Below, piece by piece: positions 39,963 through 53,003 of a stretch of 64,000 nt of DNA; positions within the stretch are counted from its first letter, which is position 1, and each line of letters starts with the position of its first letter. The notes under the pieces were generated by a model that was given only the letters and a program-made list of their open reading frames with translations, was not told where the DNA came from and made no database searches. This DNA comes from Oscillospiraceae bacterium (GTDB lineage: Bacteria > Bacillota > Clostridia > Oscillospirales > CAG-382). A program made the position numbers and the translations under genes. The stretch is taken from the NCBI GenBank assembly GCA_015064895.1, contig SVRI01000008.1:11126-75125 (forward strand), given 5' to 3'.

Positions 39963-40322
39963 TATAACCTCAACTTCGCAAAGAACATTCTTGGGAAGTG
40001 TCTTTACTGCAACGCAGCTTCTTGCAGGCTTTGATGTAAAGTACTTGCCGTAAACCTCGTTGAATGCGGCAAAATCGCCCATATCTGCGAGGAAGCAGGT
40101 TGTTTTTACTGCCTTGTCAATACTTGTTCCTGCAGCTTCGAGAACTGCCGAAAGGTTTTTGCAAACCTGTTCTGTCTGCGAAGCGATATCAGTAGCTTCA
40201 ACAGCGTTTGTTTCGGGGTTAATTGCAATCTGTCCCGATGTGAACACTAAGTTTCCTACCTTCATAGCCTGAGTGTAAGGACCGAGTGCTTCGGGTGCGT
40301 TTTTTGTATAAATTTTTTCCAT
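39945..40322 (-). CDS. ridA: RidA-family reactive-intermediate (enamine/imine) deaminase
   Basis: Start at MEKIYT behind AAAGGTGA. YjgF/RidA signature (PARSCVAV...LP....VEVI). Adjacent to the threonine dehydratase gene. Confidence 0.9.
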   Translation of the reverse strand: MEKIYTKNAPEALGPYTQAMKVGNLVFTSGQIAINPETNAVEATDIASQTEQVCKNLSAVLEAAGTSIDKAVKTTCFLADMGDFAAFNEVYGKYFTSKPARSCVAVKTLPKNVLCEVEVIAELSL

Positions 40323-40339
40323 GTTTATCACCTTTTATT

Positions 40340-41542
40340 TTAATAATGTTCCACAATCTTAAAGCCGTAATCTTTAAGAGCCTTTACAATCTCTTCGATA
40401 TGCTGCTGATGCTTTGTTTCAAGAGAAACTCTGAGGAAACAGCCATTGATGTCGGTCGTTTCACTTGCTCTTTCGTGGTGAACACCTGTTACATTACCGC
40501 CGCACTCAGCGATGATTCTCGAAACGTTCTGGAGCTGACCGGGCTTGTCCATAAGCTCAATAACGAGGTTACAAAGTCTTCCCGACTTCATAAGACCACG
40601 CTTAATAACTCTTGAGAGGATTGTAACGTCGATATTACCGCCCGAAACAACGCAGACAACTCTCTTGCCCTTAACGGGTACCTTGTTGTGCATTACCGCA
40701 GCAACCGACACTGCACCTGCACCTTCTGCTACCATCTTATGCTGTTCGATAAGTGCAAGGATTGCAGAGGAAATTTCGTCTTCGGAAACAGTTACGATAT
40801 CATCAACATATTCTGAAACAATCTTAAATGTATTTTCGCCCGGCTGCTTAACCGCAATACCGTCGGCAATTGTCGAAACCTTTTCGAGCTTTTCAATCTT
40901 ACCCGACTTTACCGAGTTGAACATGCTGGGTGCGCCCTGTGCCTGAACACCGTAAATCTTGATTTCCGGCTTTAATGTCTTTGCCGCAAAGGCAATACCC
41001 GAAATAAGTCCGCCGCCGCCGATGGGAACAACAATTGCATCAACATCGTCAAGTTCGTTTAAGATTTCAAGACCGATTGTGCCCTGACCCGCGATAACGT
41101 CGATATTATCAAAGGGATGTACAAAGGTATAACCCTCTTTGTCACGAAGCTCGATTGCCTTATTATAAGCATCGTCATATACACCGGGTACCATGCAAAC
41201 TTCTGCACCGTAGTTCTTGGTTGCTTCAACCTTGGAAATGGGTGCACCGTCAGGAAGGCAGATAAGGCTCTTTATGCCGTACTTTGTTGCGGCAAGAGCA
41301 ACACCCTGAGCGTGGTTTCCCGCAGAGCAGGCAATAACACCGTGGCTCTTTTCTTCGTCGGAGAGCTGGGAAATCATATAACCCGAACCTCTGAGCTTAA
41401 AAGAACCTGTAAGCTGAAGATTTTCGGGCTTCAACCATACATCGGCTTCGGGGTTGAGTTTCTCGGAATGTACAAGGTCTGTGTGTCTGATTACATCCTT
41501 TAGTACAAAGGAAGCGTGGTAGATTTTATCAAGTGTAAGCAT
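40340..41542 (-). CDS. ilvA: threonine ammonia-lyase (PLP-dependent, with C-terminal ACT-like domain)
   Basis: 400 aa. PLP lysine motif LQLTGSFKLRGS and GGGGLISG loop. Confidence 0.88.
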   Translation of the reverse strand: MLTLDKIYHASFVLKDVIRHTDLVHSEKLNPEADVWLKPENLQLTGSFKLRGSGYMISQLSDEEKSHGVIACSAGNHAQGVALAATKYGIKSLICLPDGAPISKVEATKNYGAEVCMVPGVYDDAYNKAIELRDKEGYTFVHPFDNIDVIAGQGTIGLEILNELDDVDAIVVPIGGGGLISGIAFAAKTLKPEIKIYGVQAQGAPSMFNSVKSGKIEKLEKVSTIADGIAVKQPGENTFKIVSEYVDDIVTVSEDEISSAILALIEQHKMVAEGAGAVSVAAVMHNKVPVKGKRVVCVVSGGNIDVTILSRVIKRGLMKSGRLCNLVIELMDKPGQLQNVSRIIAECGGNVTGVHHERASETTDINGCFLRVSLETKHQQHIEEIVKALKDYGFKIVEHY

Positions 41543-41690
41543 ATGCAGTTTACCTCTTATTTCTATCTAAAAAAAGATTATTGCAAAATATTATAACCCC
41601 TAAAAATTAACAATTGGTATACAAATTGTAATTTAGTTTGATAAATTGGTGAAATGTGGGTGGTTTTATATGAATCACGGTAATTATACG

Positions 41691-41722
41691 AAAGCAAAAG
41701 GGAACAGATAGTTTCTGTTCCC
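41691..41722 (-). terminator. intrinsic terminator after 41731-42225
   Basis: gggaacag/ctgttccc stem followed on the minus strand by CTTTTGCTTT. Confidence 0.5.
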
Positions 41723-41730
41723 AATATCAT

Positions 41731-42225
41731 TTATTTACTGTTTATGGCATCAACTATTCGGTCGGTTTGACTACGGGTGTTTGTGTCATCCATTCTGTTT
41801 GAAATAAGCTTGTTGATATTATCTTCAATCATATCAGCTTTTTTCTTTTCAAAAACAAAAAACTCAAATTTCTTTACATCTCCGGAAGTAAGCTTGACTG
41901 TCAAATGGGTTTCAAATGAGGATAAGATGGCATTAACACCAATCAATAACAAAACTAATGTAACGATAAAGCTTTTTGAAATAAGCAATATTCCCAAAAC
42001 AGAAAAAACAATACCAAGCAAGAATCTTCCGAATCTGACTCGATAATTAGATTCTACGGATGAAAGCTGATTAACGGGTAAGGTTGATTTGTGCGAACCC
42101 AGGGGAATAAGTCCAAGCAATGTGTTTGGCGTTTTGATTTTTACAAAATTCTGCTCAAACACAAACTTCCCTTTCAGATAAAATAAAATTAAAGAAGTCA
42201 TAAAACGTATAGTTTCCATATACAT
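41731..42225 (-). CDS. hypothetical membrane protein
   Basis: Start set to ATG 42225 behind AGGAGG. 164 aa with two or three TM helices. Divergent from the XRE gene. Confidence 0.5.
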   Translation of the reverse strand: MYMETIRFMTSLILFYLKGKFVFEQNFVKIKTPNTLLGLIPLGSHKSTLPVNQLSSVESNYRVRFGRFLLGIVFSVLGILLISKSFIVTLVLLLIGVNAILSSFETHLTVKLTSGDVKKFEFFVFEKKKADMIEDNINKLISNRMDDTNTRSQTDRIVDAINSK

Positions 42226-42328
42226 TCCTCCTGAAGTTTGAATTTGTCGAATACCGACAAATTCATTGTATGACAACTTGTCATAATTGTCAAGAGGAAA
42301 ATATGACATAATGTCATTAGGTGATATT

Positions 42329-42541
42329 ATGAAGAACAATTTAAAATCTTTACGTAAAGAAAAGGGGTATACACAAATTGCTTTGCAAATGAAAATAGGC
42401 ATTGAGCAGGCATTACTTTCAAAGTTTGAAAACGGAGAAAGAGTTCCGCCTACAGAAACATTAATTAAACTGGCAGAGTTTTACGATGTCAGCATTGACT
42501 ATATACTTTGTAGAACCGAGAAAAGGGAAGTAAATAAGTAA
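42329..42541 (+). CDS. XRE-family HTH transcriptional regulator
   Basis: 70 aa from MKNNLKSLRKEKGYTQIALQ. A classical Cro/CI HTH. Confidence 0.75.
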   Translation: MKNNLKSLRKEKGYTQIALQMKIGIEQALLSKFENGERVPPTETLIKLAEFYDVSIDYILCRTEKREVNK

Positions 42542-42818
42542 AACGGGCTTGTTTTTTGCAAGTCCGTTTTAAGTTAAATTAATATTTTATGTTTTTCGGG
42601 ATAATATCTTTAGGTGTGGAAGTGCCGGTGTGTAAATCGGTTTCTGAAATGTATTCGTGCATTAAATTGTTAAGGATTTCAAAATGAAAAAAGTTTTACT
42701 TTTCAACGTTAGTATAATTCATTTGATTATTTCTCCACCTTCTTTTCTTAATAAGCAAATAGTTTTTTGACATTTAATCACTTCCTAAGAAGATTATAAC
42801 ATATTTTTTCAACAAAAT

Positions 42819-43035
42819 CAATGCGAAGCATTGTATATCATCAATTCCGCAGGAATTGCATATCATCAAAGCGGAACGCTTTGTATCTCATCAAGCCGAC
42901 AAAAATACACACCTACGGTGTGATGATATGCGCCGCACTTGTGCGGCGATGATATACAGCCCTACTCGGGCTGATGATATACCAAGCCTGTCGGCTTGGA
43001 TAAAAAAAACCAAGTCCTTTAAGACTTGGTTTTTT
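42819..43035. other. structured repeat element abutting the tRNA operon 3' end (copy 1)
   Basis: GTATATCATCA-type motif at 42833, 42858 and 42883 (direct). Its complement is at 42921, 42948 and 42973. Every spacer is a short hairpin. The element ends in the bidirectional terminator ccaagtc/gacttgg (43010-43029). The first 53 nt are identical to 51931-51983. Confidence 0.8.
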
Positions 43036-43111
<76 letters not shown>

Positions 43112-43170
43112 ATATTCAATTGTAAAAAAGCCCTATAACGCACAAAACCGCATTGCTGCGGAATTGTTTT

Positions 43171-43247
43171 TGGCGACTCGGATGGGGCTCGAACCCACGA
43201 CCTCCAGCGTGACAGGCTGGCGTTCTAACCAACTGAACTACCGAGCC
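43171..43247 (-). tRNA. tRNA-Asp (anticodon GTC)
   Basis: Anticodon loop CTGTCAC. CCA encoded. Identical copy at 52473-52549. Confidence 0.9.
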
Positions 43248-43278
43248 AAGTGGTTGAACTTTTATTCAATATAAAAAA

Positions 43279-43354
43279 TGGTGGGGGGTACAGGGCTCGA
43301 ACCTGTGACCCTCTGCTTGTAAGGCAGATGCTCTCCCAGCTGAGCTAACCCCCC
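43279..43354 (-). tRNA. tRNA-Val (anticodon TAC)
   Basis: Anticodon loop CTTACAA. GGGGGGT/ACCCCCC acceptor stem. CCA encoded. Confidence 0.9.
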
Positions 43355-43460
43355 GGGACTCGCACTATGTAAAAAGCTTGATAAAGACTATTGCCTCCAT
43401 CTGCTTTTTACCGGCGTATATAAAAGGTTTCTGAGCAAAACGTCTCTCGCTCCAAACCTA

Positions 43461-43536
43461 TGGAGCGGATTACGGGGCTCGAACCCGCCACCTCGACCTT
43501 GGCAAGGTCGCGCTCTACCAAATGAGCTAAATCCGC
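43461..43536 (-). tRNA. tRNA-Gly (anticodon GCC)
   Basis: Anticodon loop TTGCCAA. CCA encoded. Identical copy at 52373-52448. Confidence 0.9.
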
Positions 43537-43541
43537 AAAAA

Positions 43542-43617
<76 letters not shown>

Positions 43618-43650
43618 AGACACCGCTGACTCTTTCCGTCAGCGTTTAGT

Positions 43651-43679
43651 ATTATAACATAGCAATTTCTGTTTGTCAA
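43651..43679 (-). promoter_or_regulatory. consensus sigma-70 promoter of the five-tRNA operon
   Basis: Minus strand reads TTGACA (43679-43674), 17 nt, TATAAT (43656-43651). Confidence 0.7.
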
Positions 43680-43712
43680 TACCTATTTTTAATTTTTTTG
43701 AAAAAATTTAAT

Positions 43713-44744
43713 TTATACCGAAAATGACGTAAAATCGGCTTTTTCGAGCATTATTTCTCTTATTTTCTCGATATTTTTTACTGAAACTCCCGCCACAATA
43801 AGGAAATTTGTCATTCTTTCTCTCCAATTTTTTCCGTAACCTCTGAGCGTCTTTACCATTGTGGCAAAATCTTCCTCATCACGGTTTTTGACATTTCCCA
43901 GTCCCGAAAGGCTCGTTAGCTCAAAATCCTTCATAAGCGTTTCTTCATCGGCTCCGCAAATTGCCTCGATAGTAAACGCAAGACATCCGGTTCTGTCTGC
44001 ACCGCCCCAGCAATGAAAATAAAAAGGATAATTCTTTTCGTCAGCAAGAAGAGAGAAAATCTTTCTCAGTGCTTCAAAATTTTGCTCCTGTATGTATTCT
44101 GTATAGGCACAAAGCGGCACCTGAACAAGCTCTGTGTCGTCGCCGATGGGGGATTTTTGTGTAAAACCCACAGCTTCCCCTCTCAAATCAAGGTCTGTTT
44201 TTATGCCGAGAACCTCGTGCATAACCTTTTTGCCGTCATCTGTCAGTGACTGATGCATATCAAGCTCCGCACCTCTGTACACAAGCCCCTGCTTTATTCT
44301 GAAGCCGTCCTCTGTCGCATGTCCGCCAAGGTCTCTTACATTTGTAGTACCGTCAAAATTCATAAATCTGGGAACGGTTTCCTCGGTTGAAAATGAGAAA
44401 ACCTCACTTTCCTCCCTGGGGTTTTTCACACGCCAATAATAGGTTGTGCCGATTTCAAAATTATATCCGTCATATCTGTTTCTTGCAACAGCAGACACAA
44501 AAATCTCCGAAAAATCAGCCGTCTTTGAAATTTCAATTATCGATGAAAGGGCATCCTTTGCCTCCCAGCGAAAAGAGATTCTCGACGGTTTTGATGCATC
44601 AAAATAATCGTGATACTGCCATCTGAAGCTCTGAAGGTCAAGCTGTCCCGTCAAATACTTTCTGCCGTCACGTATAAACTCCTTCTGAACAGAGGTCTGC
44701 AACGAAACGCAGGCTCCGTTGCCGGGGTTTTTAAGCTCTATCAT
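43713..44744 (-). CDS. protein-tyrosine/dual-specificity phosphatase-like protein with N-terminal beta-rich domain
   Basis: 343 aa. CX5R active-site loop HCWGGADRTG. Confidence 0.72.
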   Translation of the reverse strand: MIELKNPGNGACVSLQTSVQKEFIRDGRKYLTGQLDLQSFRWQYHDYFDASKPSRISFRWEAKDALSSIIEISKTADFSEIFVSAVARNRYDGYNFEIGTTYYWRVKNPREESEVFSFSTEETVPRFMNFDGTTNVRDLGGHATEDGFRIKQGLVYRGAELDMHQSLTDDGKKVMHEVLGIKTDLDLRGEAVGFTQKSPIGDDTELVQVPLCAYTEYIQEQNFEALRKIFSLLADEKNYPFYFHCWGGADRTGCLAFTIEAICGADEETLMKDFELTSLSGLGNVKNRDEEDFATMVKTLRGYGKNWRERMTNFLIVAGVSVKNIEKIREIMLEKADFTSFSV

Positions 44745-44753
44745 ATTCTCTCC

Positions 44754-45467
44754 TTAAACCTGACAGTTTTCGGCAAAATACTTCATCTGTCCGCATTTAA
44801 CCTTTTGTACAAAGTCAAGCTCGTTTTCAATCGGCTCTTCGGATTCCATTCCCGCAAGTCTGTCAAGACGGGATGCAATATGATTATCCGAACCGGCAAA
44901 CTCGATTAAACCATACTTTTCAGCGTAGAGCTTTGCCATTTGGTTATCAAATGCGCCTCTGCTGGCATTTACCACTTCCGTACCGTGAATACATCTCGGG
45001 AAAAGACGGATATGGTCGATATAAGATGCCTCTCTGAATGGGTGTGCCTGAATGACAAGAGCTCCGTTATCCATAAAAAACTTAAGCTGGTCGGACTTTT
45101 TCATATCCTGAATTTCAGGATGAGAAAGATACCACTCTTTATCAAGTCCGTAAACAAGAAAATCTGTTCCGCCAAAGGTTGTTTCAATACCGAAAAATAC
45201 CTTTATCCCGATTTCCTTTTCGAGTCTTTTTGCCTCTTCATAGTCAGAACAGTAAAATTCTACCATTTCGGCATAGCTCTTGCCTCTTACATCGTGGCAG
45301 ATATTTCCGTCAATAAAATGATTTGTAATAAAAATACCGTCATAGCCCTTTGACTTGTAAAACTCCATGTTTTCTCTCACACTTGCCGATGCACATGCGC
45401 TTACGGGTGAGGTATGCAGATGTGTTTCGTATTTATACAAATTAACCGCCCCTTTTGTAAATTTCAC
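44754..45467 (-). CDS. PHP-domain (histidinol-phosphatase-like) metal-dependent phosphoesterase
   Basis: 237 aa. N-terminal YETHLHTSPVS metal motif. Confidence 0.78.
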   Translation of the reverse strand: MKFTKGAVNLYKYETHLHTSPVSACASASVRENMEFYKSKGYDGIFITNHFIDGNICHDVRGKSYAEMVEFYCSDYEEAKRLEKEIGIKVFFGIETTFGGTDFLVYGLDKEWYLSHPEIQDMKKSDQLKFFMDNGALVIQAHPFREASYIDHIRLFPRCIHGTEVVNASRGAFDNQMAKLYAEKYGLIEFAGSDNHIASRLDRLAGMESEEPIENELDFVQKVKCGQMKYFAENCQV

Positions 45468-45576
45468 TCATATTATATCAAAAGGCAATCATCTTTTCAA
45501 GGTTATATTGACTTTTTCTACATTTAATAATATAATTTTCTCATAATCAATTACAAATTTCCCAGAGGTGATTTAC

Positions 45577-46641
45577 ATGACAAGTGTTGAAAAGCTCGAC
45601 AAAAACATGGTATTTGACACAAAAATAGAAAGAGAAGGACTTGTTTTCAAAAGTATTGAAGAAGCTCCCTTCAAGGTTTACGGTGTTTTCAAAAACGAAG
45701 CTCCCGACCTTAAGGCAAATATCTGGACGAGAATGCCAAATGATGTCGCAAAGGACATAAGCATACATGTTCACAACATTTCCAGACAGACTGCAGGCGG
45801 CAGAATCAGATTCAAGACAGACAGCCCCTATATTGCACTTAACGTCAAGAATCTTCCCCGTCCTCCCATGCCTCAGCTTACACTTGTAGCTCAGGTCGGC
45901 TTTGACCTTTATATCGGAAACGAATACTACAATTCCTTTGTTCCTCCGTCAAATATCACGGTAGGTTACGAATCGGTTGTTGACTTTCCCACAAGCGAAA
46001 TGAGAGAAATCACCCTTAATTTCCCCCTCTATTACGGTGTTGAAGATGTATTTGTGGGTATCAAGGACGGCTCAAAGTTAGAAGCCGCGTCCGACTACCT
46101 CGACATTCCCAAAATCGTATACTACGGCTCATCAATCACCCAGGGCGGATGTGCAAACCGTCCCGGCAATACGTATGAATCCATCATAGCAAGAGAAACC
46201 AATGTTGATTTTGTAGCTCTCGGCTTCGGCGGCGGTGCAAAGGGCGAGCCTTCCATGGCTGAATACATAGCGTCACTCGACATGTCCCTCTTTGTTCTCG
46301 ACTACGACCACAACGCACCCACCCCCGAGTACCTTGACGAAACACACGAAAACTTCTTCAAGATAGTAAGAAAAGCTCGTCCCGAGCTTCCTATTATAAT
46401 GATTTCCCGTCCCGTTTACTATCCCAAACCCGACGAAATCGTAAGACGTGACATTGTCAAGAAGACATACGACAATGCAGTAGCCGCAGGTGACAAGAAC
46501 GTATACTTCATCGACGGCACAACACTTCTCGAGGAATGTAAGAACAACGGCACTGTTGACGGTATCCATCCCACAGACTACGGTTTTACCTGCATGGCAA
46601 AGAAGATTCTTCCCGTAATCAAGAGTGTTTTGGGTTTATAA
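45577..46641 (+). CDS. SGNH/GDSL-family hydrolase with N-terminal beta-sandwich domain
   Basis: Block I YYGSSITQGG. Block V DGIHPTDYG. Start at ATG 45577 behind CAGAGG. Confidence 0.75.
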   Translation: MTSVEKLDKNMVFDTKIEREGLVFKSIEEAPFKVYGVFKNEAPDLKANIWTRMPNDVAKDISIHVHNISRQTAGGRIRFKTDSPYIALNVKNLPRPPMPQLTLVAQVGFDLYIGNEYYNSFVPPSNITVGYESVVDFPTSEMREITLNFPLYYGVEDVFVGIKDGSKLEAASDYLDIPKIVYYGSSITQGGCANRPGNTYESIIARETNVDFVALGFGGGAKGEPSMAEYIASLDMSLFVLDYDHNAPTPEYLDETHENFFKIVRKARPELPIIMISRPVYYPKPDEIVRRDIVKKTYDNAVAAGDKNVYFIDGTTLLEECKNNGTVDGIHPTDYGFTCMAKKILPVIKSVLGL

Positions 46642-46721
46642 AAATGCAAAAGGAACTGTCCTAGGTAGGCTTCACATAGGGAATAAATTAAAGTCAGTGA
46701 GTTCTATGCTTGCTGGCTTTT

Positions 46722-47235
46722 TTATATTATTCTTTCTGTACTTTTGTATCGACAAAAGTACCAAAAACGCCCACTCAAAAAGAGGGGATGGGCGGCAAGT
46801 TGCCGCTGACAAACCGTTATTTTGGCGGTTTTCAGTATGCCGCCAAAATAACAATTACTGCTGTCGGGCTTTCCCGACCCGTGGCGGCTTAACGCCCCTC
46901 AACACGGGAAAGAAAATTTTAAAATCCAAGCATTTGGTGTCGCGTAAAACATGTTCTGAAACAACGATGTTTGAAATTCTATAGCTGAATCGATTAAATA
47001 CACTTAAAATTCGCACAAACACCCTTGTGAGAGGTAAGCCGCCGCGGCAAAGGAGAGAAGTCAGCGTAGGTTGAGATTGCGAAAGCTTACTTATTGCGAG
47101 CCTGAGTCTTGACCTCACCCGTGGTCAAGACGAACCATTTTTGCCTTAGCCAAAACCTCAACCGAGCCCTCTCTCCTTTTGAGCGGAGCGTTTTTGCCCT
47201 CTTTTGTCGCGGGACAAAAGAGGGTCGGCACCGCA
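46722..47235. repeat. two diverged mosaic-repeat 5' parts in opposite orientation
   Basis: Forward copy is 46735-46910 (gtacttttgt hairpin ... ctgtcgggctttcccgacccgtggcggctta). Reverse copy is 47030-47226 (gagaggtaagccgccgcgg ... gccctcttttgt/acaaaagagggtc). Confidence 0.7.
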
Positions 47236-47251
47236 GTGACGAAACACTCTC

Positions 47252-47287
47252 AAAAATAAAAAGAAAGGCGTACCGCAGTACGCCTTT
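47252..47287 (-). terminator. intrinsic terminator after the TetR gene
   Basis: aaaggcgtac/gtacgccttt stem followed on the minus strand by a T-rich run. Confidence 0.6.
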
Positions 47288-47342
47288 AAATGGTATTCAT
47301 CCCTAAGGAAACACCCCTTAAGGCAGTTCCTTTTTATATTCT

Positions 47343-47930
47343 TCATCTGTTTCGTCCGTCTATACAACGTATTATAATTCTGCACATATCCTCATCCGAT
47401 TCTCTGCAGTCGTTATTTAACCAATCCATTACCATTGCCGTAATTCCCGTCAGATAGAATTTCATGGTATATTCCCTTTCATTTGCAGGAATATTAAAAC
47501 GCTCAAGAATAGGGCTGAAAACATGGCTGAACATTCTTTCATATACGTTGTCGAAATCCAATGTACCAAGGTGCTTTACAGCCGTTTTGAATACACGTCT
47601 GTTTTCCCTCACATACGAAAGATACGGCATAATATATTCAGGTCTTATAAACTGCAAATCGTTTATCGGGGTTGTTTCTACATTGAGAACAAGCCGGCTC
47701 TTGTCATGCGTAAAATAAGCGAGAAAGCCGTCTATAATATACCGTGTTGTTTCTTCGAGAAGTTCGGATATGTTTTCATAATGAAGATAAAAGGTAGAAC
47801 GGTTCACTCCTGCCATTTCACATATTTCTTTAACGGTGACATATTCAAAATCCTTTTTATCAATAAGATTTATAAGTGCTTCGTTCATCTTTCTTGCTGT
47901 ATTGAAATACTTGCTTTCATTTTTGTTCAC
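47343..47930 (-). CDS. TetR/AcrR-family transcriptional regulator
   Basis: 195 aa. N-terminal HTH VTVKEICEMAGVNRSTFYLHY. Confidence 0.88.
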   Translation of the reverse strand: MNKNESKYFNTARKMNEALINLIDKKDFEYVTVKEICEMAGVNRSTFYLHYENISELLEETTRYIIDGFLAYFTHDKSRLVLNVETTPINDLQFIRPEYIMPYLSYVRENRRVFKTAVKHLGTLDFDNVYERMFSHVFSPILERFNIPANEREYTMKFYLTGITAMVMDWLNNDCRESDEDMCRIIIRCIDGRNR

Positions 47931-47967
47931 ACTCCGACCTCCTTTTCAAAGAACAATGGATTATTTA

Positions 47968-48321
47968 TTATTTACCTTCGCTTATCTGTCTTGCAAGCTC
48001 GACTATTTCATAGGCGTATTTTGCTTTTCCGTTTTCAAGCATTTTTTTGTAGAGGGGATAGTTTATTCCGCATCCCGCAAAACCGATTACGCCTAAAACA
48101 ATTCCAAATACAAAACCCGCTACTCCGCTTCCTATTACCTGCATTGCTAAGCTCATGCCTGCACCGGCAACAAGAGCCGAAATAATTCCGAAGGTGTACG
48201 TAAAAATTGTGGCAGGAAGCTTTGCTTTGTTATCAAGCTTCTTCAAGGCAACAATTTTTGAATTGTTTTTGGGTGCATATTCCTTTGCTATAGATTCTGC
48301 TAAAATCTTATCTGTGTTCAT
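47968..48321 (-). CDS. small membrane protein (two TM helices)
   Basis: 117 aa. Gly-rich TM hairpin. Probably co-transcribed with the TetR gene. Confidence 0.5.
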   Translation of the reverse strand: MNTDKILAESIAKEYAPKNNSKIVALKKLDNKAKLPATIFTYTFGIISALVAGAGMSLAMQVIGSGVAGFVFGIVLGVIGFAGCGINYPLYKKMLENGKAKYAYEIVELARQISEGK

Positions 48322-48464
48322 TATTCACAGCCTCCTTTTTGTTTTATGACACTATTTTACATTAAACAAAAAGACTTTTGAACAACACCATTTTGAAAAA
48401 ATGTTGATTTATATGATTGTTTTTTATTTACAAAACACCTGCCGCCACGGACAGGTGTGAATTT

Positions 48465-49073
48465 CTATTTCTTTTTCCCTATTCTCTGTATAAATCCTAT
48501 AATCTGTCCCGACAGAATGACCGTCAGAAGTGAGTACATGATTCTTGTCAGCGGAATATATGTAAGTGAAAGACCGAGTATTGTAAGGTCGCTTATCATA
48601 TAAACCCACTCGATTTTAAGTCCCGTCACATGGGAAATACTCATGGCAAGAGCATCATCGCCGCAGATTGCACCGCCAAAGCGTATGGAAATTCCCGTTC
48701 CCACACCCACAAATACTGCTCCCAGTATTGCCGCCACAAGGGGCATTTCGTAAAGCTTCGGATAAATATGCGGAAAACACTCAAAAACACGATAAAACAC
48801 CGAAAAGCTGCCTGCCGCCACAGCCGAGTAAATTATAAACTCTCTGCCGAGAAGCTTCCACCCGATAAGGTAACATATTACACTTACGACAAAGTTTGTA
48901 ATTGACGGTGAAATTTTGAACCAATATTCAAGAAGAAGATTAAGTCCCAATGCTCCGCCTTCGGTAACACCCGACAGCGAATGGACATTATACAGTCCAA
49001 AGGCAAGAAAAGCACTGCTCAGAACGAGAATAATGCAGTTTTTTATTTTAATATTTTTTAACACCTTTCTCAT
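48465..49073 (-). CDS. YitT-family membrane protein (membrane domain only)
   Basis: 202 aa with about 5 TM helices. YitT-like pattern. Confidence 0.65.
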   Translation of the reverse strand: MRKVLKNIKIKNCIILVLSSAFLAFGLYNVHSLSGVTEGGALGLNLLLEYWFKISPSITNFVVSVICYLIGWKLLGREFIIYSAVAAGSFSVFYRVFECFPHIYPKLYEMPLVAAILGAVFVGVGTGISIRFGGAICGDDALAMSISHVTGLKIEWVYMISDLTILGLSLTYIPLTRIMYSLLTVILSGQIIGFIQRIGKKK

Positions 49074-49131
49074 CCTTTCTTTTGGGTAGAATAATGCAGA
49101 ACGCCATTTATCAGACGTTCTGCTTCTTTTT

Positions 49132-50418
49132 TTATTTATACTGAAGTGAATACATATAGTCCTTCATATCAACTACTGTATTTGTCTTTCTCGAAAGCTC
49201 TGCGGCAAAGCACATAAGGTAGCTCATGCTGGAAACTCCGATATCGGAAATTGAGTTGGAAGGATTATTATTTGCAACATATTCGTAAAGGTCTGCCATG
49301 ATACCAAGGTCGCCGCCGCCATGACCGCCTGCGATTGTCTGGTCAAACTCTTCTTCGGGATTATAGATAATAGTTGTCTTTCTTGTTTCAAAGGAATAAA
49401 ATTCGAGTGTGTTCTTTTCCATATCTGCTCGAAGTTCACCCTTTGTTCCCATGAATGTGGAAACTCTGCCGCCCTTATTGAATGCGGACATGGTAAGTGT
49501 TGCCTGAATATCGTTACCGAAAGTGAAGCTTACAATCTGGTGGTCAACAACATCGTTATCACACTTATATACGCATCTGCCGTAAGGACTTGTCTTAAGT
49601 ACTTCATCTACCTCTTCGGGTGTGGGTTTGAAATGTCCTGCAACTACTGCCTTGAAGTGCTGAACTTCTGCTGTAGGAAGTTTATAAAGCGAGGGTGCAT
49701 AATAGTAACAGGTATCCTTATGGGGACATCCGTCAAGACATCGGCTCGGAGCACCTTCGGGTGCGTTTTCTTCTCTGAAATAGCTTCTTGTGCCAAAGGA
49801 ATGTACCTTTGTACAATACTCATCAACAAACCACTGCAGAAGGTCTGTATCATGACAGCACTTTGCAAGAATCATGGGAGCCGCTTCATCTTCACGTCTC
49901 CAGCTACCTCTTACATAGCTATGGCTCATATGAACATTTCCGACACCCTCTGTGTGGTTGATATTCATGAGCTTACCGAGATTACCTTCGTCGATAAAGT
50001 TCTTTATAGCCTTATAGAAAGGAGTATATCTGAGAACATGGCACACAAGCACCTTTACGCCCTTTGCGATTGCCGCATCAGCGATATCAAAGCATTCCTT
50101 GGGGTCGGGCGAAATAGGCTTTTCAAGAAGGATATCATAACCCTTTTCAATTGCCATCATTGCAGGCTCATAGTGCATTTTATCCTGAGTACAGATCATT
50201 ACGATATCTGCAAGCTTAGGCTGTGAAAGAAGCTTCTTATAATCATCATATACGCCTTCAGCAGGAACATCGTAGTTATCAATAAAATACTGTCTCTTTT
50301 CGGGAAGGGGGTCTGCGATTGCAACAAGCTTGAATTTATCGGGGTGATCATCAAGATAGTGCATATAGCAGCTGCCTCTGTCGCCGCAGCCGACAAGGGC
50401 AAGTTTTAACTGTTTCAT
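49132..50418 (-). CDS. Gfo/Idh/MocA-family NAD(P)-dependent oxidoreductase
   Basis: 428 aa. N-terminal Rossmann LKLALVGCGDRG and EKP motif. Confidence 0.85.
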   Translation of the reverse strand: MKQLKLALVGCGDRGSCYMHYLDDHPDKFKLVAIADPLPEKRQYFIDNYDVPAEGVYDDYKKLLSQPKLADIVMICTQDKMHYEPAMMAIEKGYDILLEKPISPDPKECFDIADAAIAKGVKVLVCHVLRYTPFYKAIKNFIDEGNLGKLMNINHTEGVGNVHMSHSYVRGSWRREDEAAPMILAKCCHDTDLLQWFVDEYCTKVHSFGTRSYFREENAPEGAPSRCLDGCPHKDTCYYYAPSLYKLPTAEVQHFKAVVAGHFKPTPEEVDEVLKTSPYGRCVYKCDNDVVDHQIVSFTFGNDIQATLTMSAFNKGGRVSTFMGTKGELRADMEKNTLEFYSFETRKTTIIYNPEEEFDQTIAGGHGGGDLGIMADLYEYVANNNPSNSISDIGVSSMSYLMCFAAELSRKTNTVVDMKDYMYSLQYK

Positions 50419-50534
50419 GGCATTCTTCTCCTTCTATTAGGAACAAATTCGGTTTATTGTATCATACTTTTTTGGGATTGTCAATTGATTAACGAAAATT
50501 ATTATTTTTTGTTGATGTTTTTCCGGAAAAGACA

Positions 50535-50560
50535 GAAAAAGCACCCGCTTTTGCGGGTGC
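50535..50560 (-). terminator. intrinsic terminator after the YD-repeat gene
   Basis: gcacccgc/gcgggtgc stem followed by TTTTT on the minus strand. Confidence 0.6.
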
Positions 50561-50571
50561 TGATTGTTATT

Positions 50572-51825
50572 TTAGGGTTTTATGAATTCTTCAATTTCTT
50601 CTGAAATGTCAAAGGGGATGTAAACAAGTTTGTAAGTGTAGTCGTAAACGGTTTTGTCTCTATTCGCTTTTTTTATCATATTTCCATTTTCATCGTAAGT
50701 GTAGTCATAAGTTGTTTTGATGCCGTTGTAATAATCGGCAGTTTCCACTCTCTGTATCATGTTGCCCATTTCATCGTAAATGCAGTCTGTAGTTTCTTTG
50801 ATGCCGTAGTAATCGGTTTTTACACTATTTATCAGATTCCCATAGACATCATAGGCATATTCGAAAGTCGCACAGTTACCATCGTAGTTCGTAAACACCT
50901 CTTTTGTCATATTTCCGTTTTCATCGTAAGTATAGTCGTAAGATGAATAGACTCGGTCACACCAAATTACCACCTCTTTTATCCTATTTCCTTTTTCGTC
51001 ATAGGTGTAGTCAGTAATTGTTTTTTCAATATCAGACCTCGTATTCACTTTTTTAATCTTTTTTCCATTTTCATCATAGGTGTATTCGGATATATTTTTT
51101 TCGCCGTCAGCATCAGTATACACCTCTTTTACCATATTTCCATTTTTATCATAAGCATATTCGTAAGTCCAAGTATCCCCTTCAGAAAGAAGTGAATAGA
51201 CAGGCGACGTCTTGTATCCATTTTCATCATATATATACTCATAAGTCAACCCTTTACCATTGTAGTTCGTTAACTTCTTCTTTGTTATGTTTCCGTTTTC
51301 ATCGTAAATATATTCCCAAGTTCTATTGACACAATCATTACACATTATCACCTTTTTAACCACATTTCCATTTTCATCATAGGTGTAGTCATAAGTTTCT
51401 TTGTCACCACTAGAATCCATATAAATATATTTAATTGCGTTTCCACTTTTATCATAATGCTTTTCTTCATAGGCAACACTTTCGCCATCTCTAAAGGTTT
51501 TTTCGTGAACATATAGAAAATGAGTCATCATTTCCTTTGCATCCTTATAATCTCCAAGTTCCATTAGCAAATCATAAGCTTCTTCATAATTTTCATTGTC
51601 GATATAATTAAGTGCATTATTATATTTCAATTCTTCGGGACTCATAGGAACATCGATTTTTTCATCTTCAATTTTTTCTTCGTCTTCATCGGAAAAGCCT
51701 TCTTCTTTTTCGTCATAATTTTCATGGTCATCATAATCATTACGAATATCTGTTTTTTCTTCCCCACATGAAGCAAGACCAAACACAAATAAAACCGCAA
51801 GCATAAATACGATAATTTTTTTCAT
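50572..51825 (-). CDS. lipoprotein composed of YD (Rhs-type) repeats
   Basis: Lipobox LASC. Acidic linker. About eleven xYxYxYDxxGN repeats. Confidence 0.8.
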   Translation of the reverse strand: MKKIIVFMLAVLFVFGLASCGEEKTDIRNDYDDHENYDEKEEGFSDEDEEKIEDEKIDVPMSPEELKYNNALNYIDNENYEEAYDLLMELGDYKDAKEMMTHFLYVHEKTFRDGESVAYEEKHYDKSGNAIKYIYMDSSGDKETYDYTYDENGNVVKKVIMCNDCVNRTWEYIYDENGNITKKKLTNYNGKGLTYEYIYDENGYKTSPVYSLLSEGDTWTYEYAYDKNGNMVKEVYTDADGEKNISEYTYDENGKKIKKVNTRSDIEKTITDYTYDEKGNRIKEVVIWCDRVYSSYDYTYDENGNMTKEVFTNYDGNCATFEYAYDVYGNLINSVKTDYYGIKETTDCIYDEMGNMIQRVETADYYNGIKTTYDYTYDENGNMIKKANRDKTVYDYTYKLVYIPFDISEEIEEFIKP

Positions 51826-51930
51826 TTTTATTTCCTCCGACTCTCTTTATGTGTTGATTTTACCACACATTAAAAATATTGTCAAGAACACAAAAAAGCA
51901 CCCGCAATGAGGTGCATCAACTATTATAAT

Positions 51931-52123
51931 CAATGCGAAGCATTGTATATCATCAATTCCGCAGGAATTGCATATCATCAAAACGAAGTTTTGTATATCA
52001 TCATTGCGAAAGCATATATACACCTTCGGTGATGAGATACAACAACGGTGTGCCGTTGTTGATGATATACCATTGCTTTCGCAATGGATAAAAAAATCCC
52101 AAGTCATTTGACTTGGGATTTTT
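51931..52123. other. structured repeat element abutting the tRNA operon 3' end (copy 2)
   Basis: Motifs at 51945, 51970 and 51993 (direct). Complements at 52031 and 52061. Hairpin spacers. Terminator tcccaagtc/gacttggga at 52097-52118. Confidence 0.8.
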
Positions 52124-52198
52124 TGGAGGCGCCACCCGGATTTGAACCGGGGCATAAAGGTTTTGCAGACCTCTGCCTTACCGCTTGGCTATGGCGCC
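52124..52198 (-). tRNA. tRNA-Cys (anticodon GCA)
   Basis: Anticodon loop CTGCAAA. CCA encoded. Confidence 0.88.
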
Positions 52199-52372
52199 GT
52201 TTCTTTCTTGTAAGAAAGAAACCAAAGAACTTTTAATCCGAGACTCTGCCATCAAAAAAATCAAGTCACAGATGCCCGAATGGTTTTTCGTTTGACCGCC
52301 ATAAACGCAAGCGGTCAAACTCAGTTCTGAGTTTTTCTCTTCAAGAATATTAAGTTGTACCTGAATTCAGGT
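52199..52372. repeat. mosaic repeat inside the tRNA operon (Cys-Gly spacer)
   Basis: gtttctttct/agaaagaaac hairpin + ccaaagaact, gcccgaat, and the gtttgaccgc/gcggtcaaac hairpin. Confidence 0.72.
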
Positions 52373-52448
52373 TGGAGCGGATTACGGGGCTCGAACCCGC
52401 CACCTCGACCTTGGCAAGGTCGCGCTCTACCAAATGAGCTAAATCCGC
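52373..52448 (-). tRNA. tRNA-Gly (anticodon GCC)
   Basis: Identical to 43461-43536. Confidence 0.9.
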
Positions 52449-52472
52449 ATAGGTGGTTTAATAAAAAGTTTC

Positions 52473-52549
52473 TGGCGACTCGGATGGGGCTCGAACCCAC
52501 GACCTCCAGCGTGACAGGCTGGCGTTCTAACCAACTGAACTACCGAGCC
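52473..52549 (-). tRNA. tRNA-Asp (anticodon GTC)
   Basis: Identical to 43171-43247. Confidence 0.9.
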
Positions 52550-52735
52550 ATGGTTAAAACTTATGTCCCATAAGGGATTGCGAAAAGCTTATGTTTTCGC
52601 TGAGTTTGGTCGGTTGCGTTTATGCCGACCAAACGGAAAACCACTCGGGAACCCTACACAAGATTTTCATCCTCAATGTAGTCCCGAATCATTTTCTTTT
52701 TGCTTACTTTTTCTTTTTATCAAAGAAAAAGTAAG
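52550..52735. repeat. mosaic repeat 3' half inside the tRNA operon (Asp-Trp spacer)
   Basis: gagtttggtcgg/ccgaccaaac hairpin, cactcgggaac, ttttctttttg, and the terminal hairpin cttactttttcttt/aaagaaaaagtaag touching the tRNA-Trp 3' end. Confidence 0.78.
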
Positions 52736-52811
52736 TGGCAGGGGAAGAAGGTCTCGAACCCACGACACGCGGTTTTGGAGACCGCTGCTCTACCAACTGA
52801 GCTATTCCCCT
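52736..52811 (-). tRNA. tRNA-Trp (anticodon CCA)
   Basis: Anticodon loop CTCCAAA. CCA 3' end encoded. Confidence 0.88.
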
Positions 52812-52860
52812 GTGTCGTTTTGCCGTCCGAAGACATCCTCCGAACAACGATTGCTTAGGT

Positions 52861-52889
52861 AGTATAACACAAGGGACTTGGTTTGTCAA
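52861..52889 (-). promoter_or_regulatory. sigma-70 promoter of the four-tRNA operon
   Basis: Minus strand reads TTGACA (52889-52884), 17 nt, TATACT (52866-52861). Confidence 0.6.
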
Positions 52890-53003
52890 GTCTTTTTTTT
52901 ATTTTTTTGATTTTTTTAAAAGTCCGATTATAATTCGATAATTTTATACAAAATATCCGCCGATTCATACGAACCGGCGGAATACTTCATTATTATTTAG
53001 GGT

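What the first reader, a model, noticed from the sequence alone, without database searches (positions are those of the whole stretch)
42819..43035. Unclassified ~200-bp structured element abutting the 3' end of a tRNA operon, in two copies
Copy 1 (42819-43035) ends at tRNA-Thr. Copy 2 (51931-52123) ends at tRNA-Cys. The first 53 nt are identical (caatgcgaagcattgtatatcatcaattccgcaggaattgcatatcatcaaa). After that the copies diverge but keep the same plan.
- The motif G(T/C)AT(A/C)TCATCA occurs three times in direct orientation, 25, 25 or 23 nt apart.
- A small central hairpin follows.
- The reverse complement GATGA(T/G)ATA(C/T) then occurs three times in copy 1 and twice in copy 2.
- Every spacer is a 5-8-bp hairpin, and the stem sequences differ between units and between copies (aaagcg/cgcttt versus aaaac/gtttt; gccgcac/gtgcggc versus aacaacgg/ccgttgtt).
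- Each copy ends in an A-run, hairpin, T-run bidirectional terminator shared with the tRNA operon.

Conserved short motifs with structurally conserved but sequence-variable hairpins fit no class I know: not CRISPR, not attC, not REP/BIME.

Possible explanations are a plus-strand sRNA ending at the shared terminator, arm-type recombinase sites left at tRNA integration hot spots, or a protein-binding array.
Basis: seen in the sequence. Interest (0 to 1): 0.65.

Follow-up and report, generated by a model that had tools for sequence, protein, structure and literature searches.

The report
Hairpin-word array behind tRNA genes
The two 200-bp elements are real, gene-less copies of a widespread gut-Clostridia repeat (a sister of the orphan 'Gut-1' RNA motif) that sits just behind tRNA genes and normally precedes a small Avd-like four-helix-bundle gene, which probably binds it.

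Summary
Window 42816-43035 and 51928-52123 are the only two copies in this genome of a polar ~200-bp element. It occurs in about 15% of Oscillospirales genomes sampled.

Anatomy, read on the tRNA strand:
- tRNA-CCA
- bidirectional terminator
- ATCC
- hairpin P1
- 2-4 units of the word GYATMTCATCA plus a hairpin
- a centre complementary to P1
- 2-4 inverted units
- a last hairpin
- TTGATT, which serves as the -35 of an outward promoter

The hairpins covary. G-T wobbles and G..A loops show that the two arms are selected on opposite strands.

In 13 of 78 copies a 115-aa PF05635/TIGR02436 four-helix-bundle gene (Avd-like, "23S rRNA IVS protein") follows at a fixed distance. Copy 1 keeps only its first eight codons. 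Copy 2 has none.

Paralogous four-helix-bundle genes carry analogous arrays with a different word for each protein clade. Several of those arrays score above threshold for Rfam Gut-1, one hit per arm on opposite strands.

Best reading (about 45%): a cis-acting binding platform for the linked protein, next to a promoter at tRNA/tmRNA 3' flanks. Rivals are Gut-1-like RNAs and a cassette recombination site. No biochemical function is shown.

The parts
43036..43111 (-). tRNA-Thr(GGT), last gene of a Phe-Gly-Val-Asp-Thr operon. Its CCA end abuts the element.
   Evidence: ARAGORN; Rfam
43002..43035 (.). Copy 1: bidirectional intrinsic terminator (A8, stem ccaagtc/gacttgg, T6). It is homologous to the copy 2 terminator, so it is part of the repeated unit.
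42982..43001 (-). Copy 1: ATCC plus proximal hairpin P1 (aagcc-GACA-ggctt on the minus strand).
42921..42982 (-). Copy 1 proximal arm: three word+hairpin units that read GYATATCATCR on the minus strand (plus-strand words at 42921, 42947, 42972). The one-arm covariance model hits 42921-43002 on the minus strand at 63.9 bits.
42894..42920 (.). Copy 1 centre: agccgaca (42894-42901), complementary to P1; an A/T run; and the central hairpin cacacc-tac-ggtgtg.
42816..42893 (+). Copy 1 distal arm: AATCA, hairpin H0, and three word+hairpin units on the plus strand (words at 42833, 42858, 42883). The one-arm model scores 95.4 bits.
42793..42821 (-). Outward promoter on the tRNA strand: -35 TTGATT (42821-42816, the last word of the element), a 17-nt spacer, and TGnTATAAT (-10 at 42798-42793). 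This is a pattern match only.
   Evidence: the same arrangement occurs in many relatives
42696..42773 (-). Remnant of the cognate four-helix-bundle gene. ATG at 42773, MSKNYLLI, then a 307-bp deletion relative to the intact 117-aa orthologue in the sister species G010. What remains is a 26-codon ORF.
41731..42402 (-). Variable cargo downstream: a 223-aa ORF with no Pfam match, unique to this genome within the genus.
52124..52198 (-). tRNA-Cys(GCA), last gene of a Trp-Asp-Gly-Cys cluster. Its CCA end abuts copy 2.
52090..52123 (.). Copy 2: bidirectional terminator (A7, stem tcccaagtc/gacttggga, T-run).
52030..52089 (-). Copy 2 proximal arm: two units (plus-strand words at 52030 and 52060) plus P1 (attgc-GAAA-gcaat on the minus strand, 52070-52087) and ATCC. 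The one-arm model hits 52030-52120 on the minus strand at 40.7 bits.
52004..52029 (.). Copy 2 centre: ttgcgaaagc (52004-52013), complementary to P1, and the central hairpin cacc-ttcg-gtg.
51928..52003 (+). Copy 2 distal arm: AATCA, H0 and three units (words at 51945, 51970, 51993). The one-arm model scores 102.5 bits. No -10 follows its TTGATT. Instead a second terminator and a separate TTGACA-17-TAAAAT promoter precede an RHS-repeat lipoprotein gene (50572-51825).

Best explanation
**What the two elements are.** They are orphan copies of a 'hairpin-word array', the cis-acting front part of a small module. The module docks directly behind the terminator of tRNA and tmRNA genes in Oscillospirales. 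In full it reads: [A-run, terminator, T-run] [two-armed array] [promoter whose -35 is the array's last word TTGATT] [~115-aa Avd-like four-helix-bundle gene, PF05635/TIGR02436]. Variable cargo genes often follow or replace that gene.

**Anatomy of an arm.** Each arm has 2-4 units. A unit is a 5-8-bp hairpin of free sequence with a G..A loop, plus an ~8-nt unpaired word (YATMTCAT). The two arms are inverted, so each is read on its own strand.

**Proposed mechanism (inferred).** The linked four-helix-bundle protein is probably an oligomer like its pentameric relatives. It recognises the repeated word and the hairpin loop, with the hairpins extruded or on single-stranded DNA. This would build a two-fold symmetric nucleoprotein complex beside the promoter. 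The complex would control or insulate that promoter and mark this tRNA-flank site.

**Shown:**
- the anatomy and the covariation
- selection of the two arms on opposite strands
- the tRNA/tmRNA association
- linkage to the protein gene
- word-by-protein-clade specificity

**Inferred:**
- binding by the protein
- action at the DNA level
- a regulatory or insulating effect

In this genome the cognate gene is broken at copy 1 and absent at copy 2.
For: **Family and polarity**
- 142 arrays were found, always forward words then reverse words and never the opposite order.
- The proximal and distal ends are fixed.
- The one-arm model hits 46 of 301 genomes and 29 of 152 genera of the order.

**Structure**
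- 94% of 283 spacers have at least 4 perfect pairs, against 8.6% of shuffles. There are 154 distinct spacers.
- 11 of 17 consensus pairs show compensatory changes.

**Arms on opposite strands**
- On the tRNA strand, G-T:A-C mismatches are 15:2 in the proximal arm and 1:7 in the distal arm. G..A loops lie on the word-forward strand in both arms.
- The one-arm model hits each window copy once per strand.
- Loop polarity follows the unit, not its position.

**Link to the protein**
- 13 of 78 copies are followed at a fixed offset by MSKNYLLIYSEQLAT.... This protein matches PF05635 at 5.8e-19 and TIGR02436 at 4e-21. Its PDB relative 2RLD has five chains.
- Copy 1 keeps the first 8 codons of this gene.
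- 16 of 30 homologues have a same-strand tRNA end 232-271 nt upstream (up to 518 nt) of the start codon.
- 27 of 30 homologues have an inverted array. Its word (ATATCAT, AATTCAT, ATATCGC, ATATCGA, TATTTCA, GATTTCA, ACTTCAC, GATTACA and others) maps onto well-supported protein clades that cut across host families.

**Constraint**
- The array (184 nt) is 100% identical between this genome and G010, while flanking genes are 88-90% identical.

**Precedent**
- DGR target sites belong to systems that use Avd. They need a DNA hairpin whose stem sequence is free but whose GRNA loop is strand- and sequence-specific (PMC3240598).
Against: - There is no binding or expression experiment.
- The word-to-clade match could be simple co-inheritance of linked DNA, plus homogenisation by unit duplication.
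- Intact arrays persist in genomes without a cognate gene: this genome has only a pseudogene, and G009 has no homologue at all. The array is still perfectly conserved here. It may therefore work without the linked protein.
- Word spacing varies from 19 to 31 bp. This fits poorly with a rigid double-stranded DNA complex.
- Stems of 5-8 bp extrude poorly from duplex DNA.
- Type-A arms converge whereas other types diverge. No simple geometry explains this.
- Metatranscriptome contigs do contain pieces of the family, so an RNA role is not excluded.
Confidence: 0.45

Rival explanations
1. Structured non-coding RNA(s). Each arm would be a Gut-1-like RNA domain. It would be made either by read-through of the tRNA terminator (proximal arm) and antisense transcription ending at the bidirectional terminator (distal arm), or as one long folded transcript. 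It might be bound by the four-helix-bundle protein as an RNP.
For: - Gut-1 was classed as a likely RNA on covariation (PMC2864571).
- Sister arrays exceed the Gut-1 threshold.
- Covariation is strong and G-U pairs are tolerated.
- UNCG and GNRA loops occur.
- The terminator is bidirectional, with a conserved A-run.
- Pieces of the family are present in gut metatranscriptome contigs at depths of tens to hundreds.
Against: - There is no promoter in front of either arm on its selected strand. The proximal arm starts 4 nt after a terminator, and only weak -10-like words occur elsewhere.
- The two arms are selected on opposite strands. The arm arrangement flips between subfamilies while the flanks stay fixed.
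- The dominant loops are C-GNA-G triloops. From my own knowledge these are typical of very stable DNA mini-hairpins rather than of RNA.
- The contigs carry no strand information and may include DNA.
Confidence: 0.25
2. Recombination or cassette-junction site. The array, with its terminator, would be the site at which small promoter-led gene cassettes are captured, stacked or exchanged behind tRNA/tmRNA genes. It could serve as accessory (arm-type) sites for a site-specific recombinase encoded elsewhere, or as portable homology. The four-helix-bundle protein would be an accessory factor or simply the commonest cargo.
For: - Genes behind the array are highly diverse and differ between close species.
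- Tandem units of terminator, array and gene occur behind one tRNA.
- At tRNA-Cys the sister species carries a different array type at the same place.
- The same terminator plus array is found behind different tRNAs.
- 4HB-A proteins are 93-95% identical across four host families.
- tRNA and tmRNA 3' ends are classic integration sites. In 10 loci a duplicated tRNA 3' end lies directly before an array.
Against: - No recombinase or transposase is linked to the arrays examined.
- There is no target-site duplication and no att repeat around the window copies.
- The duplicated tRNA ends show insertions between tRNA and array, not insertion of the array itself.
- Terminators abutting CCA are common at tRNA ends without arrays, so the exact junction needs no special mechanism.
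- The array is not found in the phage or plasmid collections.
Confidence: 0.2
3. Passive structural DNA. The element would be a stack of stable palindromes that merely insulates strong tRNA transcription from the next gene as a back-up terminator or supercoil buffer. The conserved word would have no specific reader.
For: - The element always lies between a terminator and a promoter.
- It persists without the protein gene.
Against: - An 11-nt word that is invariant within arrays yet switches as a block between protein clades is not needed for passive insulation.
- Strand-specific loop conservation and the covarying P1-centre pairing are also not needed for it.
Confidence: 0.1

Closest known systems
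Gut-1 RNA motif (Rfam RF01706; Weinberg et al. 2010, PMC2864571)
   Same: - The architecture is the same: three or more hairpins of variable, covarying sequence joined by a fixed short linker (GUGAAAU against UGAUGAUAU/GYAUAUCAUCA).
- The habitat is the same (gut Clostridia).
- Arrays in front of paralogous four-helix-bundle genes in the same genus and family score 50-64 bits against a threshold of 50.
   Different: - The window copies get no Gut-1 hit at E<=1. The best type-A score is 22 bits.
- The linker word differs.
- The arm that resembles Gut-1 points away from the centre in type A and towards it in true Gut-1 arrays.
- In the passages of that paper read here, Gut-1 is listed as an orphan single RNA, with no mention of an inverted partner arm, a tRNA/tmRNA position or a linked PF05635 gene.
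REP/BIME/REPIN elements with RAYT transposases
   Same: - Both are short hairpin repeats in inverted pairs in intergenic DNA after terminators.
- Many non-coding copies occur per single associated gene.
- Each gene subfamily has its own repeat family.
- Recognition of single-stranded DNA hairpins is plausible for both.

This comparison rests on my own knowledge of REP/RAYT.
   Different: - Here the stems are free and the linker word is fixed; REP is the reverse.
- The partner is a 115-aa four-helix bundle with no HUH or tyrosine catalytic domain.
- Copies are confined to tRNA/tmRNA flanks and cassette junctions rather than spread genome-wide.
DGR target-site hairpin/cruciform together with Avd (PMC3240598; PMC10053308)
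   Same: - An Avd-type (PF05635-like) protein occurs in the same system as a DNA hairpin.
- The stem sequence of that hairpin is free, while its G..A loop is strand- and sequence-specific.
   Different: - This genome has no reverse transcriptase.
- There is no template or variable repeat.
- Here there are arrays of 4-8 hairpins with a conserved word, not one GC-rich hairpin.
- The loops are mostly GNA triloops.
23S rRNA intervening sequences encoding S23p (PF05635)
   Same: The same protein family is encoded next to or inside a stable-RNA gene and flanked by inverted repeats. This rests on my own knowledge and on the Pfam family name.
   Different: - Here the gene lies outside the RNA gene, behind a terminator, and has its own promoter.
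- I did not examine whether intervening sequences carry word-hairpin arrays.
Integron attC sites / arm-type integrase sites at tRNA att sites
   Same: - Structure is conserved while sequence is variable.
- Both have a role at gene-cassette junctions or at tRNA 3' ends.
   Different: - The GTTRRRY core sequence conserved in attC sites is not evident in the two copies.
- The ORFs flanking the two copies show no integrase domain.
- There are no att direct repeats.
- The element has many repeated units and two arms on opposite strands.

Membership tests
Gut-1 RNA motif (RF01706) | Covariance-model score at or above the Rfam gathering score (50 bits) | tested here: not met
   - There is no Gut-1 hit on window 40000-55000 at E<=1.
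- The best type-A hit is 22 bits, on L062.
- Sister arrays with other words reach 64.4, 51.4, 50.9 and 50.1 bits.
Gut-1 RNA motif (RF01706) | Three hairpins of variable, covarying sequence separated by a conserved short linker | tested here: met
   - Alignment to the Gut-1 consensus.
- 11 of 17 pairs are compensatory in 37 arms.
Hairpin-word array / four-helix-bundle module (family defined here) | Two inverted arms matched by one arm model on opposite strands; proximal ATCC plus P1; distal TTGATT | tested here: met
   Model R1 gives four hits in the window, two per copy on opposite strands. Flank anatomy is shown.
Hairpin-word array / four-helix-bundle module (family defined here) | Position directly behind the terminator of a tRNA or tmRNA gene | tested here: met
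   - Both window copies abut a tRNA.
- 43 of 79 relatives lie behind a tRNA.
- 4 relatives abut a tmRNA gene and a fifth (L025) lies about 1 kb from one.
Hairpin-word array / four-helix-bundle module (family defined here) | Cognate PF05635 gene about 60 nt behind the last word | tested here: inconclusive
   - Copy 1 has only an 8-codon remnant plus a 307-bp deletion.
- Copy 2 has none.
- 13 of 78 relatives have the gene.
REP/BIME/REPIN-RAYT | Associated RAYT (IS200/IS605-like Y1 transposase) gene | tested here: not met
   The associated gene is PF05635/TIGR02436. None of the ORFs flanking the arrays matched a transposase.
REP/BIME/REPIN-RAYT | Conserved palindrome sequence within a genome | tested here: not met
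   There are 154 distinct spacer hairpins among 283. The word, not the stem, is conserved.
MITE (TIR transposon derivative) | Target-site duplication and insertion at varied sites in either orientation | tested here: not met
   - The flanks of the two copies share no duplication.
- Polarity relative to the tRNA and the promoter is fixed in all oriented copies.
Diversity-generating retroelement | Reverse transcriptase (RVT_1) | tested here: not met
   PF00078 is absent from the 98%-complete genome, while control genomes score.
Integrase-mediated tRNA island (att sites) | Direct repeat of the tRNA 3' end bounding the inserted DNA | tested here: not met
   There is no second copy of the last 16-30 nt of tRNA-Thr or tRNA-Cys on the 83-kb contig.
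Integron attC | Adjacent IntI integrase and attI | not tested
   No systematic search was made. The eight ORFs flanking the copies show no integrase domain.

The most novel reading that the evidence does not exclude
Gut-1 and its sisters are not free-standing sRNAs. Each is one arm of a two-armed array of DNA mini-hairpins and words, and that array is the cognate binding site of an Avd-like or '23S-IVS' four-helix-bundle protein. Array and protein together form a horizontally mobile module that homes to the 3' flank of stable-RNA genes (tRNA and tmRNA; compare the 23S intervening sequences). The module carries its own terminator and promoter and acts as a docking point for swappable cargo genes. 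This would give a first function to two long-standing orphans (PF05635 proteins outside DGRs, and Gut-1). It would also define a new kind of protein and repeat partnership analogous to RAYT-REPIN.
Probability: 0.3. Interest if true: 0.85.

Novelty: new variant of a known kind. Interest (0 to 1): 0.68.

Why it matters
PF05635/TIGR02436 four-helix-bundle proteins are very common, with up to 10 genes per genome here. Outside diversity-generating retroelements they have no known role. Gut-1 has been an orphan motif since 2010.

This element links the two:
- A conserved word-plus-hairpin array always precedes these genes.
- The word changes with the protein clade.
- The whole module sits at tRNA/tmRNA 3' ends, where variable genes accumulate.

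The link turns two descriptive orphans into one question that can be tested at the bench: does the protein read its own array, and in what nucleic-acid form? It also flags a recurrent organiser of gene-content variation in abundant, mostly uncultured gut Clostridia.

Tried and rejected
- **Known RNA family.** Rfam at E<=1 over 15 kb gave only tRNAs and noise.
- **Phage or plasmid origin.** No blastn match was found in either collection.
- **DGR or retro-mechanism, including tRNA-primed cDNA.** The genome has no reverse transcriptase.
- **Classical integrase island.** There is no att repeat of the tRNA 3' ends on the contig.
- **Exact insertion at CCA as proof of targeted integration.** This was weakened. 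About 10 of 27 tRNA operon ends without arrays also have a terminator abutting CCA.
- **One long hairpin in which forward words pair with reverse words.** Word variants are not matched in a nested way. For example, copy 1 has TGATGAGATAC with no GTATCTCATCA partner in the other arm (reading). This was not tested statistically.
- **Strand set by position (direction of transcription or replication).** Rejected, because loop polarity follows the unit and flips between subfamilies.
- **Plus-strand promoter upstream of copy 1.** TTGACA lies 21-22 nt from TATAAC, which is too far apart.
- **Literature.** Searches found nothing on this association.

Full report
**1. Observation**

Both elements are as described. 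tRNA-Thr (43036-43111) and tRNA-Cys (52124-52198) lie on the minus strand. Each is followed at once by an A-run, hairpin and T-run, and then by the element.

The word GYATMTCATCA occurs 10 times in the window against 0.13 expected, and only inside the two elements. The order is three forward copies, then three (copy 1) or two (copy 2) reverse copies.

The copies share an identical 55-56-nt head starting at AATCA (42816 / 51928). They also share GGATAAAAAAA and homologous terminator stems. Either strand folds about 9-10 standard deviations better than shuffles.

Rfam gives no match at E<=1. The genome holds no further copy.

**2. A large, polar family**

An exact three-word pattern found the element in 13 of 61 relatives, with up to 11 arrays in one genome. 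It also hit at least 120 contigs of named MAGs. Almost all are Acutalibacteraceae, Oscillospiraceae, Ruminococcus or 'Clostridia/Eubacteriales' from ruminant and other guts.

Of 142 arrays, all that contain both orientations are forward-then-reverse. None is reverse-then-forward.

Oriented on the tRNA strand, the anatomy is constant:
- tRNA-CCA
- AAAAAA, terminator hairpin, TTTTTT
- ATCC
- hairpin P1
- (GYATMTCATCA + hairpin) x 2-4
- GTAT and an A/T run
- a segment complementary to P1
- (TGATGAKATRC + hairpin) x 2-4
- a last hairpin
- TTGATT

In many copies TTGATT is followed by 17 nt and (TGn)TATAAT, a ribosome-binding site and a start codon. In those copies the last word of the element is the -35 of an outward promoter. 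Window copy 1 has this arrangement: TTGATT at 42821-42816 and TATAAT at 42798-42793 on the minus strand. Copy 2 lacks the -10. It is followed by another terminator and an independent promoter.

A covariance model of one arm (37 arms) hits 46 of 301 genomes and 29 of 152 genera of the order.

**3. Structure is selected, one arm per strand**

- 94% of 283 spacers have at least 4 perfect pairs (mean 6.0), against 8.6% of shuffled spacers. There are 154 distinct spacer sequences.
- RNAalifold on 37 distal arms gives three hairpins. Of 17 pairs, 11 are kept through changes on both sides. One pair appears as AU, CG, GC, UA and UG.
- The stems include the last CA and the first (T)G of the words, which leaves about 8 nt (YATMTCAT) unpaired.
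- P1 and the centre share a complementary run of 9.1 nt on average, against 4.3 nt for mismatched pairs of elements. At least six covarying types occur, and the covariation includes the P1 loop, for example GACA/TGTC against GATA/TATC.
- On the tRNA strand, G-T outnumbers A-C mismatches 15:2 in proximal-arm stems. In distal-arm stems the ratio is 1:7. My Fisher test on those counts gives p of about 5e-4.
- Loops are G..A (GAA, GCA, GTA, GTCA, GTTA) on the strand where the word reads forward, in both arms.
- Accordingly, the one-arm model hits each window copy twice, on opposite strands and converging: 42816-42893 (+), 42921-43002 (-), 51928-52003 (+) and 52030-52120 (-).

**4. The partner gene**

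The ORFs behind the promoter are diverse. The recurrent one is a ~115-aa protein, MSKNYLLIYSEQLAT.... It is present behind 13 of 78 arrays, starting about 61-63 nt after the last word.

It belongs to PF05635 '23S rRNA-intervening sequence protein' (5.8e-19) and to TIGR02436 'four helix bundle protein' (4.1e-21). This is the Avd-like family (PMC10053308). Its closest solved relative is 2RLD, which has five chains.

Window copy 1 is followed by ATG TCA AAA AAC TAT TTG CTT ATT (MSKNYLLI). Compared with the sister species G010, which has an intact 117-aa gene, 307 bp are missing.

Downstream lies variable DNA. The 223-aa ORF 41731-42402 has no Pfam match and is unique to this genome within its genus.

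**5. The rule generalises, and the word tracks the protein**

Homologues of the protein occur in 39 of 61 relatives, with up to 10 per genome.
- In 16 of 30 loci a same-strand tRNA ends 232-271 nt upstream (or 434-518 nt) of the start codon.
- 27 of 30 loci have an inverted array of 5-9 copies of a 7-mer upstream.

The 7-mer differs by protein clade. Examples are ATATCAT(CA), GATTACA, ATATCAT in the opposite arm arrangement, AATTCAT, ATATCGC, ATATCGA, TATTTCA, GATTTCA, ACTTCAC and AGCTAAA.

On a maximum-likelihood tree these word types coincide with well-supported clades. The clades mix host families. Clade A proteins from four families are 93-95% identical.

This genome has a third such locus on another contig: tRNA-Pro, a degenerate ATTATTCA array, and an intact paralogue.

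**6. Relation to Gut-1**

Arrays of the TATTTCA/GATTTCA clades score 64.4, 51.4, 50.9 and 50.1 bits for Rfam Gut-1 (threshold 50). There is one hit per arm, on opposite strands. Gut-1, published as an orphan RNA from the human gut, is therefore one arm of this kind of array.

The window's type-A copies fail the threshold. They also have the opposite arm arrangement: loop polarity follows the unit, not its position.

**7. Context**

- Of 79 type-A arrays with enough upstream sequence, 43 have their first word 49-62 nt after the CCA of a tRNA. These tRNAs represent 14 different amino acids.
- Four more abut a tmRNA gene, and a fifth (L025) lies about 1 kb from one.
- Terminators abutting CCA are common at tRNA ends without arrays in this genome, so the exact junction is not special.
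- The same terminator types travel with the array to different tRNAs.
- In 10 loci a duplicated tRNA 3' end (15 nt) lies directly before the array. Other DNA has therefore integrated later between the tRNA and the array.
- The window copies have no such repeats.
- The genome has no reverse transcriptase.
- At tRNA-Cys, G010 carries a different array (word TTACCTC) in place of copy 2.
- At tRNA-Thr, the 184-nt array is 100% identical between the two species, although neighbouring genes are 88-90% identical.

**8. Transcription**

Unstranded gut metatranscriptome contigs contain the conserved head and tail of the family at summed depths of tens to hundreds. tRNA pieces in the same runs reach hundreds to thousands. 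This shows neither strand nor transcript ends, and DNA carry-over is possible.

**9. Interpretation**

The facts that any explanation must cover are:
- a fixed word with free but paired spacers
- strand-specific G..A loops
- two inverted arms
- a place between a terminator and a promoter at tRNA/tmRNA ends
- a linked Avd-like gene whose clade predicts the word
- many gene-less copies
- strong sequence constraint

I favour a cis-acting platform read by the four-helix-bundle protein, at about 45%. It would most likely act on DNA with the hairpins folded out. The reasons are the opposite-strand symmetry of the arms, the lack of promoters for either arm, and the C-GNA-G loops. The DGR target hairpin offers a precedent for free stems combined with a specific G..A loop in an Avd-using system.

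The main counter-evidence is that intact, conserved arrays exist without a cognate gene, including in this genome.

Rivals are Gut-1-like RNAs (25%), a cassette recombination site (20%) and passive insulation (10%).

**10. Verdict**

The feature is real and non-random, and it belongs to a large family. The window's copies are orphan members. They are a new variant of the Gut-1 kind, not members by Rfam's threshold. I found no published account of the system-level picture (array plus PF05635 gene at stable-RNA flanks) in the searches made. Earlier notes of this scan reached similar descriptions independently.

Noticed in passing
window 52199-52372 (spacer between tRNA-Cys and tRNA-Gly): An unusually long (175-nt) spacer full of hairpins lies inside the tRNA cluster. 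Its piece 'gaccgccataaacgcaagcggtc' recurs behind tRNA-Val(GAC) on contig C23 and behind tRNA-Leu(TAG) on contig C39 of the same genome. It is another small repeat family at tRNA flanks.
   Followed up: no
own genome, 3' flanks of tRNAs on contigs C5, C9, C13, C18, C31, C33, C34 (outside the window): A second repeat family lies behind tRNA terminators. It has an inverted T-arm-like GGGACTCGAACCC, then GAGGGC..GCGTTAAGAAAA, then a terminator hairpin (caacc..ggttgtttttt). It could be a tRNA-derived element or a small RNA on the opposite strand.
   Followed up: no
own genome, tRNA-Thr(CGT) on C18 and tRNA-Arg(CCG), tRNA-Arg(CCT) on C26; also the distal flank of L015: A third conserved 3' trailer is present: CCAgtcgagagcctcgacacgca(a/t)tttcgcgta...ctctcggctttttt.
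   Followed up: no
G000 contig C23:22990-23650 (locus L188): This is a third module in the same genome: tRNA-Pro(TGG), a terminator, a degenerate array almost without hairpins (word ATTATTCA), and an intact four-helix-bundle paralogue (50% identity). Its centre is complementary to the terminator's 5' arm, not to a P1 hairpin.
   Followed up: partly
window 41731-42402 (-) and 50572-51825 (-): The genes behind both arrays are lineage-specific. One is a 223-aa ORF with no family match. The other is a 417-aa lipoprotein with RHS repeats, which the 99%-similar neighbourhood of G010 lacks.
   Followed up: partly
L103 826-1031; also L153, L094, L097, L144: These are long one-directional arrays of 5-10 word+hairpin units built from repeated blocks of 3-4 hairpin types. 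They look like tandem expansion of units. L103 ends in TTGATT plus a gene.
   Followed up: no
L115 525-790, L067, L047, L063, L064, L091, L112, L125, L060, L083: The last 15-18 nt of the adjacent tRNA are repeated 140-4000 nt downstream, immediately before an array. This is the signature of later site-specific integrations between tRNA and array. Several inserts are only 140-230 nt long.
   Followed up: partly
L165 / L017 (G058:C13) and L140 1990-2060: A conserved ~75-nt piece lies between tandem arrays: GGTTCGAATTCatacgcaaaactgccTAAAATatcttttttgtagcccatag. It looks like a promoter (TTCGAA-N18-TAAAAT) driving a very short transcript into the next terminator.
   Followed up: no
terminator loops in L162, L164, L173, L179, L186: Terminator hairpins of different array subfamilies share the loop TTTGTCTACCAA. 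Such loop conservation is unusual for a plain terminator.
   Followed up: no
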